A stretch of DNA of 64,000 nucleotides from Candidatus Woesearchaeota archaeon (lineage in GTDB: Archaea; Nanobdellota; Nanobdellia; Woesearchaeales; ARS49): positions 1 through 64,000 of the forward strand of contig JAWADY010000001.1 of assembly GCA_038891615.1 (NCBI GenBank). The letters are read 5' to 3'. The position numbers and the translations under genes were made by a program. The stretch's first letter is position 1, and the number at the start of each line of letters is the position of its first letter. This document shows positions 9,947-11,992 of the stretch, piece by piece. The notes under the pieces are model-generated. The model had not been told where the DNA came from, made no database searches, and saw only the letters and a list, made by a program, of their open reading frames with translations.

Positions 9947-10066
9947 TGGACCCGTCGGGAAACTCGACGCTGGCAAGACGCCAGTCGCCCAACGTCTTGA
10001 AGACGTTCTCGAACCCGATGCCTCCACCGTGCAAGGGTGGCGCTCTACCAGATGAGCTACGGGCCC
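9947..10066 (-). tRNA. tRNA-Ala(TGC) in the 16S-23S spacer with 47-nt BHB intron in the T-loop (59/60; intron 9961-10007)
   Basis: Acceptor GGGCCCG/CGGGTCC-A with G3:U70; anticodon arm CCACC-CT-TGC-AC-GGTGG; splicing restores GGGTTCGAGTCCC, 73 nt mature. Confidence 0.93.
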
Positions 10067-10231
10067 ATGAGCATTAGATATGATAAAGAGTGCAGGCAAG
10101 CCAGTTTAAAAAAATAGGAGGTGATCCATCCGCAGGTTCCCCTACGGATACCTTGTGACGACTTAACCCACCTCACCGAACAAAGGTTCGGATTGGCCAA
10201 GCAGCCAATACTCACCCAAGCCCGGCTCGGT

Positions 10232-10276
<45 letters not shown>

Positions 10277-10573
10277 GGCAATGATAATACCCGATTACTA
10301 CGGATTCCAACGTCACGAGGATGAGTTGCAATCCTCGATCCGTACTGGGGCAGCTTTTCGAGGTTTAGCTTCTCCTTTCGGAGTTGCATCCCATTGTGGC
10401 TGCCATTGTTGCGCGCGTGTAGCCCAGGATATCCGGGGCGTACGGACTTACCGTAGCCCGCACCTTCCTCCTTCTTTCGAAGGCAGTCCTCACACTGTGC
10501 CCGCTCAACCTTGCGGTCGCGTTGGTAAGTGTGAGCACGGGTCTCGCTCGTTACCTGACTTAACAGGACACCT

Positions 10574-10611
10574 TAACCGGCGTTTGCAGTGATTAAAGCC
10601 TGCAGAACGCT
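10574..10611 (-). other. 38-nt BHB intron in 16S rRNA (after ~G1079, E. coli numbering)
   Basis: GCCG-TG^A-GCGTT...AACGC-CGGT-TA^A-GGTG; cutting both bulges restores CGTGCCGTGAGGTGTCC. Confidence 0.88.
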
Positions 10612-10750
10612 CACGGCACGAGCTGACGGTGGCCATGCACCACCTCTCGGCTCGTCAGCAAAGCCCTTTAGACTGTGCTTCATCCTGCCGTCAACCCTGG
10701 TGAGATTCTCGGCGTTGAATTCGATTAAACCGCACGCCGCACCCGTTGTA

Positions 10751-10781
<31 letters not shown>

Positions 10782-10895
10782 CCTTGCGACCGTACTCCCC
10801 AGGTGGCGTGCTTAACGACTTCTCTACGACACTGCACATTCTCGAAGAATGTGCAACATCTAGCACGCAGCGTTTACGGCTAGGACTACTCGGGT

Positions 10896-10997
10896 AATTA
10901 GTCGACAAAACCCCATTTTACGTCAAAAAGTTTCGCAAAAGTAGTTTTTTGGCGATCTTTGTGAAACTTTTCATACGAACTACAGGGGTGAGTCGAT
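10896..10997 (-). other. 102-nt BHB hairpin intron in 16S rRNA (after ~U793, 790 loop)
   Basis: TTAG-AT^A-TCGAC...GTCGA-CTAA-TT^A-CCCG; cutting restores GGATTAGATACCCG; interior is a long hairpin with no ORF. Confidence 0.92.
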
Positions 10998-11257
10998 ATC
11001 TAATCCGGATCGCTCCCCTAGCTTTCGTCCCTCACCGTCGGAGCCGTTCCAGCAGAATGCCTTCGCCATTGGTGGTCCTCCCAGGATTATAACATTTTAC
11101 CGCTCCCCTGGGAATACCTTCTGCCTTTCCCGGTCCCAAGTCTGGCAGTCTTTCCTGCGCGCTGTCGGGTTGAGCCCGACAATTTCACAGGAAATTTACC
11201 AAACCGGCTACGAACGCTTTAGACCCAATAATAGTGGTTCCCACTTGTGGCGCCGGG

Positions 11258-11289
<32 letters not shown>

Positions 11290-11992
11290 CCACTTATTCG
11301 CCAAGATTTTTGCTCTTGGCAAAAGCCCGCCGTAAAGCGAGCACTTGGAATCCCCTCATCACGCTTGCGCGCATTGTGAAGTTTTCCCGACTGCTGCACC
11401 CCGTAGGGCTAGGACCAGTGTCTCAGTGTCCTTCTCGGGGCATCCTCTTCCAAGGCCCCTACGGATCTTCGGCTTGGTGAGTCCGTTACACCACCAACTA
11501 CCTAATCCGCCGCCGACCCATCCTTGGGCGGTTTGCGGTTTTACCCTAGCCTTTTCAGGAAAGGGACTTTCCAGTTTTCCTTTCCCTAACGGCCATTAGC
11601 CTCAGTTTCCCGAGGTTATTGCCATCCCAAGGGTAGGTTGTCGACGTGTTACTGAGCAGTTCGCCGCCGGCTCCCTCTTGCGAAGGAGCAAGCCGACTTG
11701 CATGTCTTACTGGGATTCCAATAGCAGCAACCTCCTGCAGGATAAACAGGGAACTGCGGTTTTACCGCTGCAGGGTGTGGTTCCAGACGAGAACCCGACT
11801 CCTGTCGGGAGCCTCGCCAATAACCCCTTTCGTCGCAAAGCTTTTCTAGGAACTGGCTTGCCTGCATCGTGCTCAACAAGAGATTGAGCACTCACTCTAT
11901 TAGCAGACTCAGCTTTCCCGAGCCTCATTTTTTTAGAAGCCGGATGATGTTACCGGCACGGGAGGTGAAGATTATTTTAATCACCCACCTCC

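What the first reader, a model, noticed from the sequence alone, without database searches (positions are those of the whole stretch)
10574..10611. Minimal 38-nt BHB intron in 16S helix 36 (after ~G1079)
Seen: the insert forms GCGTT/AACGC plus TGCAG/CTGCA and supplies CGGT to pair with exon GCCG. Cutting after the second base of each 3-nt bulge regenerates exactly GCCGTGAGGTG. It is tRNA-intron sized with no ORF. I do not recall this site among the classical Thermoproteales 16S intron loci, but that needs checking. Inference: tRNA-type mini-introns can invade rRNA in this lineage without a homing endonuclease, or are remnants of such introns.
Basis: partly seen in the sequence, partly recalled or inferred. 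Interest (0 to 1): 0.7.

Follow-up and report, generated by a model that had tools for sequence, protein, structure and literature searches.

The report
Small tRNA-type intron in 16S rRNA
The single 16S rRNA gene of this tiny hot-spring archaeon carries a 38-base insert that has the shape of the introns that archaea cut out with their tRNA-splicing enzyme; this kind is known, but it sits at a site not listed before.

Summary
The 16S gene lies on the minus strand at 10116-11753. It has 38 extra bases at the tip of helix 36, at window 10611..10574, between E. coli positions 1079 and 1080. In the RNA, exon GCCG pairs with the intron's 3'-terminal CGGU (4 bp). Two 3-nt bulges, UGA and UAA, flank that helix, and the rest of the insert is a hairpin. 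Cutting after the second base of each bulge gives GCCGUG+AGGUG, the consensus GUGA loop.

The fold energy of this one sequence is not better than shuffles. The support is comparative. A search that fixed only the exon flanks found 19 inserts at this site, 14 of them distinct, 28-52 nt long. All 14 keep the 4-bp helix (56/56 pairs), both 3-nt bulges, an adjoining hairpin (66/70 pairs) and a GURA loop after excision. One helix pair covaries, C-G with U-A.

The genome encodes one splicing endonuclease and one RtcB ligase. No RNA data from this organism were available, so splicing is inferred. Short hairpin introns without an ORF are already known in crenarchaeal 16S genes. What is new is the site (1079), the host lineage (Woesearchaeota-like DPANN), and an outer helix that only helix 35 can supply across a junction. 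Confidence in the intron reading is about 0.85. Interest is modest.

The parts
10116..11753 (-). 16S rRNA gene, the only copy in the 661-kb assembly; 1638 nt against a 1478-position model
   Evidence: Rfam RF01959, 1380.5 bits, full length. It is the single match in the whole genome.
10574..10611 (-). 38-nt putative BHB intron between E. coli positions 1079 and 1080, at the tip of helix 36. RNA 5'-A GCGUU C UGCAG GCUUUAAUCA CUGCA AACGC CGGU UA-3'
   Evidence: 39 bases against 1 in the model. Sequence; fold. It is unique in the genome by blastn-short, with only a self hit.
10614..10617 (-). Exon strand X of the central helix H: GCCG, which is the 5' strand of helix 36 plus the first loop base
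   Evidence: Pairs with intron CGGU in the MFE and centroid folds. Paired 4/4 in all 14 distinct inserts; position 2 covaries, C-G in 11 and U-A in 3.
10611..10613 (-). 5' bulge UGA. The inferred cut is after UG, so exon 1 ends at window 10612
   Evidence: Unpaired 3-nt bulge. The bulge is U-R-N in 14 of 14 inserts. The cut position follows from standard BHB geometry and was not measured.
10580..10610 (-). Intron hairpin (outer helix h'): GCGUU/AACGC, a 1-nt bulge C, UGCAG/CUGCA, and a 10-nt loop
   Evidence: -11.7 kcal/mol for the core. The five pairs next to the bulges form in 66 of 70 cells across the 14 inserts, with 4-7 pair types per position.
10576..10579 (-). Intron strand X' of the central helix H: CGGU
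   Evidence: It is CGGY where the exon is GCCG and CGAY where the exon is GUCG.
10573..10575 (-). 3' bulge UAA. The inferred cut is after UA, so exon 2 starts at window 10573 (A, the last base of the GUGA loop)
   Evidence: Three unpaired bases after X'. The third base is A in 14 of 14 inserts. In folds with long flanks this 'bulge' opens into the h35/h36/h37 junction.
10896..10997 (-). Second insert of the same gene: 102 nt between E. coli 793 and 794. X = UUAG, B1 = AUA, hairpin UCGAC.../...GUCGA, X' = CUAA, B2 = UUA. Excision gives GGAUUAGAU+ACCCGAG
   Evidence: 103 bases against 1 in the model. Sequence. Fold z = -2.12. Inserts of 49-189 nt with the same ends occur at this site in many relatives.

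Best explanation
The 38 bases are an archaeal bulge-helix-bulge (BHB) intron in the pre-16S rRNA. It has no ORF and no ribozyme.

In the precursor, the 5' strand of helix 36 plus the first loop base (GCCG) pairs with the intron's 3'-terminal CGGU rather than with its mature partner GGU. The rest of the intron forms a hairpin. This presents two 3-nt bulges, UGA and UAA, on opposite strands, 4 bp apart.

The cell's single tRNA-splicing endonuclease (EndA) cuts after the second base of each bulge. RtcB then joins the exons to give GCCGUG-AGGUG and probably circularises the intron. The freed GGU then pairs with GCC to form mature helix 36 with its GUGA tetraloop.

Shown here: the insert, its predicted fold, conservation and covariation of the motif at this site in 14 distinct inserts, and the EndA and RtcB genes. 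Inferred: transcription through the intron, the cut positions, ligation, and the refolding. The outer helix on the exon side is not supplied by neighbouring bases. In predicted folds, helix 35 stacks directly on the central helix and stands in for it across a three-way junction.
For: (1) Rfam alignment shows 38 extra bases exactly in the h36 loop.

(2) MFE and centroid folds give the 4-bp GCCG/CGGU helix, a 3-nt bulge and the hairpin.

(3) A pattern that fixed only the exon flanks and an insert of 24-54 nt found 5 loci in 185,579 species genomes and 11 metagenome contigs. With the window and two relatives that makes 19 rows and 14 distinct inserts. In all 14 the central helix is paired 4/4 (56/56) and both bulges are exactly 3 nt. 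The adjoining hairpin is paired in 66/70 cells with many pair types. Excision restores a GURA loop: UG in 8, UA in 6, and the final A in 14/14. Slid registers give at most 28/56 and 38/70.

(4) There is compensatory change. The exon reads GCCG with an intron ending CGGY (11 inserts), or GUCG with CGAY (3 inserts).

(5) The intron cores share little sequence. The window's core has no homologue in the genome or in the fetched loci. So the structure is what is kept, not the sequence.

(6) The closest 16S genes lack the insert, with clean boundaries: 23 of 26 relatives' loci. Presence is patchy on the 16S tree.

(7) One EndA gene is at G000:C2:29585-30106, 174 aa, 103 bits to PF01974. One RtcB gene is at C2:144473-145765, 566 bits. 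The genome has many intron-bearing tRNA genes, so the machinery is in use.

(8) The same gene has a second insert with the same architecture, at 793/794.

(9) The motif definition (a 4-bp helix flanked by two 3-nt bulges) and the circularisation of excised introns come from passages of PMC7714728.
Against: There is no RNA evidence. The only RNA runs found hold at most 0.21 of the sampled words. They come from groundwater and other habitats, not the hot springs whose DNA runs hold the sequence. When laid, contigs that skip the 38 bases occur in the RNA run X7 and also in both DNA runs. The listed DNA pieces that skip them differ from the window at 10-18% of positions. So these are intron-less 16S genes of other organisms, not spliced transcripts.

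No listed zero-difference DNA contig covers 10569-10773, so the runs do not independently confirm the insert in this organism.

The fold energy of the single sequence is ordinary, z = -0.74.

The exon-side outer helix h is missing. The bases next to the central helix give U-G and then G-G, so the motif is the relaxed HBh' type. The sole EndA aligns without gaps to the M. jannaschii alpha4 enzyme. It lacks two short insertions present in the N. equitans catalytic subunit. Passages of PMC5829648 state that only loop-bearing (alpha-beta)2 and epsilon2 enzymes remove relaxed motifs efficiently.

The fold that uses helix 35 as surrogate outer helix appears exactly in 7 of 13 sequences and partly in 2. 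Four fold otherwise.
Confidence: 0.85

Rival explanations
1. The insert is a retained expansion segment. The 38 bases stay in the mature 16S as a longer helix 36, and nothing is cut.
For: No RNA data exclude it. The insert is a stable hairpin at the tip of a helix, where expansion segments often sit. The motif lacks a proper exon-side outer helix, and the only EndA looks like the strict alpha4 type.
Against: An extension of helix 36 would not need the following features. The intron's last 4 paired bases compete with exon GGU for GCC. Exactly 3 unpaired bases sit on each side in 14 of 14 inserts. Those bases would rebuild a GURA tetraloop on excision in 14 of 14. The CGGY/CGAY element tracks the exon's GCCG/GUCG. 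If the insert were retained, the conserved exon GGUGU would be left unpaired in the h35-h37 junction.
Confidence: 0.09
2. The insert is an intervening sequence that is cut out but not re-ligated. EndA or another nuclease removes the hairpin, and the 16S then works as two fragments held together by base pairing.
For: Only the cutting motif is evidenced here. Ligation is assumed. Fragmented rRNAs exist in other organisms (recalled, not checked here).
Against: An RtcB ligase gene is present, and tRNA splicing in this genome needs it. The flanking bases are selected to rebuild a closed GNRA loop, which matters only if the ends are joined. Passages of PMC7714728 describe ligation and circularisation as what follows BHB cleavage in H. 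volcanii.
Confidence: 0.04
3. The insert is an assembly or binning artefact, or lies in a dead rRNA gene copy.
For: The Logan contigs listed for the two DNA runs do not include a zero-difference piece across 10569-10773.
Against: It is the only 16S gene in a 98%-complete genome. It scores as a full-length SSU. Thirteen other distinct inserts with the same architecture at the same site occur in other genome and metagenome records. Six DNA runs hold 0.84-0.86 of the sampled words of the gene.
Confidence: 0.02

Closest known systems
Short hairpin-forming BHB introns of crenarchaeal 16S rRNA genes (Thermoproteales, Desulfurococcales, Aigarchaeota; Jay & Inskeep 2015, PMC4496867)
   Same: They are under 50 nt, have no ORF, form a hairpin, sit in highly conserved parts of the 16S, and have a BHB core at the exon-intron junctions presumed to be cut by the tRNA splicing endonuclease and joined by RtcB (section 4 read).
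   Different: The site differs: 1079 is not among the 13 listed loci (374, 548, 722, 781, 803, 901, 908, 919, 978, 1093, 1205, 1213, 1391). The host differs: it is a 0.66-Mb DPANN (Woesearchaeota-like) genome, not a crenarchaeote. No homing-endonuclease intron is nearby in this gene. The exon-side outer helix is not formed by adjacent bases.
Archaeal pre-tRNA introns with the canonical hBHBh' motif
   Same: The size range is the same; this genome's predicted tRNA introns are 9-77 nt. Both have a 4-bp helix between two 3-nt bulges, with cuts after the second bulge base. The same enzymes would act. In tRNA-Ile(GAU) of this genome, the bulges UA|A and AA|A fit that geometry.
   Different: The host RNA is rRNA. 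The central helix is built from an rRNA helix strand plus the intron's 3' end. The outer helix that the anticodon stem supplies in tRNA is missing here, and only helix 35 across a three-way junction can stand in for it.
Relaxed (HBh'/hBH) BHB motifs cut by loop-bearing EndA types (Kaneta et al. 2018, PMC5829648; passages seen)
   Same: One of the two outer helices is missing, so the 3' cleavage site is not a closed bulge.
   Different: Those substrates are tied to (alpha-beta)2 or epsilon2 enzymes, or to DPANN alpha4 enzymes with an extra 'L3' loop. The enzyme here is a single 174-aa protein that aligns without gaps to the M. jannaschii alpha4 enzyme. I could not decide whether it has L3.
BHB introns reported alongside group I introns in archaeal (mostly DPANN) rRNA genes (Nawrocki et al. 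2018, PMC6125680; passages seen)
   Same: That work notes that BHB introns occur in the rRNA genes that host its archaeal group I introns; its table of group I hosts is largely DPANN.
   Different: That paper catalogues group I introns. In the passages I saw, no BHB intron positions are given and no 1079 site is mentioned. Its supplementary table was not available to me.

Membership tests
Archaeal BHB intron (rRNA/tRNA type) | A central 4-bp helix flanked by two 3-nt bulges on opposite strands | tested here: met
   GCCG/CGGU with bulges UGA and UAA. The helix is paired 56/56 and both bulges are 3 nt in 14 of 14 distinct inserts at this site, against at most 28/56 in slid registers. Definition from PMC7714728.
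Archaeal BHB intron (rRNA/tRNA type) | Both outer helices h and h' close the bulges (canonical hBHBh') | tested here: not met
   h' is present at 5+5 bp. The exon-side h is not formed by adjacent bases (U-G, then G-G). Helix 35 stacks on H in 7 of 13 long-flank folds, leaving the 3' bulge open into a junction. So the motif fits the relaxed HBh' class, not the canonical one.
Archaeal BHB intron (rRNA/tRNA type) | Excision at the bulges restores the conserved mature sequence | tested here: met
   GCCGUG+AGGUG equals the model consensus and the intron-less relatives. A GURA loop is restored in 14 of 14.
Archaeal BHB intron (rRNA/tRNA type) | Splicing endonuclease and RtcB ligase are encoded by the host | tested here: met
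   PF01974 at 103.4 bits, one gene. PF01139 at 566.5 bits, one gene.
Archaeal BHB intron (rRNA/tRNA type) | The insert is absent from mature rRNA, and a circular or linear excised intron is detectable | not testable with these tools
   No RNA run of this organism was found. The laid RNA contigs belong to other organisms.
Mobile rRNA intron with homing endonuclease (LAGLIDADG) | An ORF for a homing endonuclease inside the intron | tested here: not met
   The insert is 38 nt, too short for any ORF. No long insert was seen at this site in 26 relatives' loci. No Rfam hit boundary falls at model position ~1018 in the hits of the 88 of 151 order-level genomes that had a 16S match.
Group I / group II self-splicing intron | A ribozyme core detectable by a covariance model | tested here: not met
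   No intron family passed its gathering score anywhere in the window. 38 nt is far below ribozyme size.
rRNA expansion segment | The insert coaxially extends the native helix and is retained | tested here: inconclusive
   The pairing displaces the native partner GGU instead of extending GCC/GGU, which argues against this. Retention itself could not be tested.

The most novel reading that the evidence does not exclude
The 1079 element is a natural relaxed (HBh') substrate of a loop-less, M. jannaschii-like alpha4 EndA, which recognises it only because rRNA helix 35 stacks on the central helix across the h35/h36/h37 junction. This would tie excision to correct folding of the 16S head domain, so the intron would act as a folding checkpoint. 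These endonuclease-free mini-introns, at 793, 1079 and 1093, would persist and move among Woesearchaeales 16S genes by an RNA-level route or by co-conversion, rather than being decayed homing introns.
Probability: 0.15. Interest if true: 0.6.

Novelty: new member of a known kind. Interest (0 to 1): 0.38.

Why it matters
It adds a new insertion site, the tip of helix 36 at position 1079, and a new host group, Woesearchaeota-like DPANN with sub-megabase genomes, to the catalogue of archaeal rRNA introns. It shows that this site is used repeatedly: 14 distinct inserts are in public data.

Practically, such inserts, together with the roughly 100-nt insert at 793 inside the 806R primer site, affect 16S length, alignment and primer matching for these organisms.

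Mechanistically, it pairs a relaxed BHB motif with what looks like a strict alpha4 endonuclease. That makes a simple in vitro test of EndA substrate range worthwhile.

Tried and rejected
RNA evidence. The look-up of sequencing runs found six hot-spring DNA runs holding 0.84-0.86 of the words, but no RNA run above 0.21. Read laying on X1, X3 (DNA) and X7, X8 (RNA) showed 'skips 38' joints in both DNA runs and in the RNA run X7. The listed DNA contigs that skip the 38 bases carry 17-31 differences per ~170 bases. So they are other archaea without the insert, and this says nothing about splicing here. The part 10569-10773 had no listed zero-difference contig, which is no evidence either way.

Fold energy. 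The single-sequence z-score was not significant, so I dropped it as an argument.

Phylum-wide pattern search. Of 401 genomes, 10 matched. Only G000 and G056 were real inserts at this site. A 13-nt-longer h36 region in G296 was not examined. The rest were chance matches outside rRNA as judged by their sequences; I did not check those loci.

Origin from a tRNA intron or a repeat. blastn-short of the 38 nt against the genome and all fetched loci gave only self hits.

Remnant of a homing-endonuclease intron. I found no long insert at 1079 in 26 relatives' loci. No split Rfam hit falls at that position in the order-level sample. Of 18 long 16S genes fetched, 12 could be read at this site: 11 had no insert and one (L071) had a 28-nt insert. 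That insert is identical to L032's, on a contig of the same length. Six of the 18 could not be read at this site: L063, L064 and L070 matched none of my patterns, and L065, L067 and L074 did not match at this site. This is weak negative evidence only.

Alternative outer helix. CACC upstream pairs with GGUG in one fold. I rejected this because it needs a 10-nt asymmetric loop and is not kept in L033.

EndA loop typing. PMC5829648 places 'L3' only 'in the C-terminus region'. I could not decide whether this enzyme has it.

tRNA controls. ARAGORN's intron boundaries were imprecise for several tRNAs. Only tRNA-Ile was used as an illustration.

Literature. Searches found no description of a 16S intron at helix 36 / position 1079 or of BHB mini-introns in Woesearchaeota. 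Castelle et al. 2015 is not held, and supplementary tables were closed, so a mention there cannot be excluded.

Unpublished genomes. G009 (L023) and G034 (L024) are rows. The statement that L023 has an insert at 1093 and none at 1079, and that L024 has the 793 insert but not the 1079 one, rests on them. G024, G361 and G446 appear only in search tables. For G361, I judged its single pattern match to be chance, from its sequence alone.

Full report
WHAT IS THERE. Rfam's archaeal SSU model matches the window at 10116-11753 on the minus strand, full length, 1380.5 bits. It is the only 16S gene in the assembly, which has 661,270 bases in 5 contigs and is 97.9% complete. The gene is 1638 nt against 1478 model positions.

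Two large inserts account for most of the excess. One is 39 bases where the model has 1, between ...CAGCUCGUGCCGUG and GGUGUCCUGUUAAGUC. The other is 103 bases where the model has 1, after GGAUUAGAUA. The first is the finding.

On the RNA strand it reads GCCG UGA GCGUU C UGCAG GCUUUAAUCA CUGCA AACGC CGGU UAA GGUG. The MFE and centroid folds give exon GCCG paired to intron CGGU, a 3-nt bulge UGA, and the 5+5-bp hairpin.

THE BHB READING. The motif cut by archaeal splicing endonucleases is a 4-bp helix flanked by two 3-nt bulges (PMC7714728, passage). GCCG/CGGU is that helix. UGA lies 3' of its exon strand and UAA lies 3' of its intron strand.

In a canonical pre-tRNA intron (between positions 37 and 38), the cuts fall after the second base of each bulge. 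This is established geometry that I recalled. It is illustrated in this genome by tRNA-Ile(GAU), whose bulges are UA|A and AA|A. Applied here, exon 1 ends at window 10612 and exon 2 starts at 10573. That gives GCCGUG+AGGUG, which is helix 36 (GCC/GGU) closed by a GUGA tetraloop. Intron-less relatives have exactly this sequence.

SITE NUMBERING. By recalled E. coli primer positions the site is 1079|1080. As a check, relative L023 (unpublished genome G009) has an insert after UGUUAA, 14 bases downstream. That position is the published locus 1093.

IS IT MORE THAN CHANCE? Not on energy. The fold has z = -0.74, and 49 of 200 shuffles fold as well. The evidence is comparative.

Among 26 loci covering the site (the window plus 25 genomes of the same family or order), two besides the window carry an insert there: L025 (52 nt) and L026 (30 nt). 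The other 23 have none.

I then scanned with a pattern that fixed only the exon flanks and allowed 27-57 free bases. It found 5 loci in the species-genome collection. Four are titled Candidatus Woesearchaeota and one is titled as a Methanosarcinales MAG. It found 11 contigs in the metagenome collection. Together these make 19 rows and 14 distinct inserts of 28-52 nt.

Nothing in the pattern required structure, yet all 14 share these features:
- The four bases before the last three pair 4/4 with the exon tetranucleotide (56/56).
- Both bulges are exactly 3 nt.
- The five bases after the first bulge pair with the five before the intron strand of the helix in 66 of 70 cells, with 4-7 pair types per position.
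- The first bulge begins U-R (UG in 8, UA in 6) and the second ends in A (14/14), so excision always rebuilds a GURA loop.

Sliding the 3' partner by 1-3 bases drops pairing to 5-28 of 56 and 18-38 of 70. Where the exon reads GUCG instead of GCCG (3 distinct inserts), the intron reads CGAY instead of CGGY. That is a two-sided change.

The intron interiors are otherwise dissimilar. The window's own intron has no relative in its genome or in any fetched locus.

THE MACHINERY. The genome has one PF01974 splicing-endonuclease gene (G000:C2:29585-30106, 174 aa) and one RtcB gene (C2:144473-145765). ARAGORN predicts introns in 26 of 41 tRNA genes, though some of these are long variable arms misread as introns. 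Rfam alignments of six window tRNAs with inserts (12-35 extra bases) place them all in the anticodon loop.

Four relatives, two with and two without the 1079 insert, each have one EndA gene, in open frames of 178-201 aa.

A TENSION. The exon-side outer helix is not formed by the bases next to the motif (U-G, then G-G), so this is the relaxed HBh' form. Passages of PMC5829648 say that relaxed motifs are removed efficiently only by enzymes with an extra specific loop. They also say that DPANN alpha4 enzymes often carry a loop called L3.

The enzyme here aligns without a gap to the M. jannaschii alpha4 enzyme over residues 29-174. It lacks two short insertions seen in the N. equitans catalytic subunit. 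I could not place L3, so its status is open.

When helices 35 and 37 are included in the fold, 7 of 13 sequences give an uninterrupted 10-bp stack of helix 35 on the central helix, followed by the 3-nt 5' bulge. The 3' bulge then opens into the h35/h36/h37 junction. Two more sequences do so with helix 35 partly open, and four fold otherwise. Helix 35 may therefore act as the outer helix. This is inference.

WHAT COULD NOT BE SHOWN. No RNA run of this organism exists among those served. The 38-base 'skips' in the laid runs appear in both DNA runs and in RNA run X7. The listed DNA pieces carrying them differ from the window at 10-18% of positions, so they are other organisms' intron-less genes. 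Splicing, ligation and circularisation are therefore inferred.

DISTRIBUTION AND ORIGIN. I built a 16S tree of 39 rows. Two short rows were dropped and L034 was left out as a duplicate of L025. The 16 insert-bearing rows need 9 changes, and at least 6 are forced by well-supported branches. Several have intron-less sisters: the window with L018, L025 with L023/L024, L056 with L011, and L026 with L007. The sample is biased, because carriers were collected by the feature itself. So this shows only that presence is patchy, not how often the insert was gained.

In a phylum sample of 401 genomes, only G000 and G056 showed a real insert of 15-100 nt at the site. Many of those genomes lack an assembled 16S. 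G435, from an order-level 16S search, has a 28-nt insert (L071) identical to L032's, on a contig of the same length. No long or ORF-bearing insert at 1079 was seen. Whether these are remnants or independent arrivals stays open.

COMPARISON WITH WHAT IS KNOWN. Jay & Inskeep 2015 (PMC4496867, section 4 read) list 13 16S intron loci in Thermoproteales, Desulfurococcales and Aigarchaeota. They report short (<50 nt) hairpin introns at 7 of them. Position 1079 is not listed, and 1093 is.

Nawrocki et al. 2018 (PMC6125680, passages) note that BHB introns share host rRNA genes with archaeal group I introns, whose listed hosts are largely DPANN. They give no BHB positions in the text I saw.

My seven literature searches found no description of this site. 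Supplementary files and Castelle et al. 2015 were not available.

The kind of element is therefore known. The site, the host lineage and the junction-type outer helix are new details.

VERDICT. The BHB-intron reading is well supported by comparative structure (confidence about 0.85) but unproven at the RNA level. Novelty: a new member of a known kind. Interest is modest.

Noticed in passing
window 10896-10997 (minus strand): The same 16S gene has a second, 102-nt insert between E. coli 793 and 794, inside the 806R primer site. It has the same BHB layout: UUAG/CUAA helix, bulges AUA and UUA, hairpin UCGAC.../...GUCGA. Relatives carry 49-189-nt inserts with the same ends at this site. It co-occurs with the 1079 insert in 9 of the 11 distinct carriers whose 793 site could be read. 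793 is not among the 13 published crenarchaeal loci.
   Followed up: partly
window 9948-10066 (minus strand), in the 16S-23S spacer: The spacer holds a tRNA-Ala(UGC)-like gene. Rfam matches it as only 57 nt because roughly 45 bases interrupt the T-loop (sequence). The fold shows the T-stem, a 3-nt bulge, a 4-5-bp helix, a 3-nt bulge and then an intron hairpin. That looks like a BHB intron at a non-canonical T-loop position. However, the standard cut rule gives a T-loop that is too long, so the register or the gene's integrity is unclear.
   Followed up: partly
L076 and L078 (43-nt inserts); L023 (G009, unpublished; insert length not measured): Small inserts at the published 16S locus 1093, 14 bases downstream of the 1079 site, occur in other Woesearchaeales-like genomes. 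None of these three genes also has the 1079 insert.
   Followed up: partly
Relatives' 16S hits (e.g. G057:C34, G058:C1, G040:C40, G239:C35, G119:C12, G455:C23): Many relatives' 16S matches stop at model position 828, sometimes followed by a separate 28-nt piece (830-857) at a contig end. Others split at 496/517, 705/706 or 1343/1344. Recurrent assembly breaks or large inserts at the same few 16S positions suggest long introns in this order.
   Followed up: no
G000 whole genome (contigs C1-C4): ARAGORN with introns allowed predicts 41 tRNA genes, 26 with introns of 9-77 nt, in a 0.66-Mb genome. Its tRNA-Pyl and tRNA-SeC calls are probably misreads of intron-bearing genes.
   Followed up: no
L037 (G296:C35:38-70): A same-class genome has 16 bases instead of 3 between GCCG and GAUGUCC, at a contig end. 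This is a 13-nt longer h36 region with no obvious BHB.
   Followed up: no
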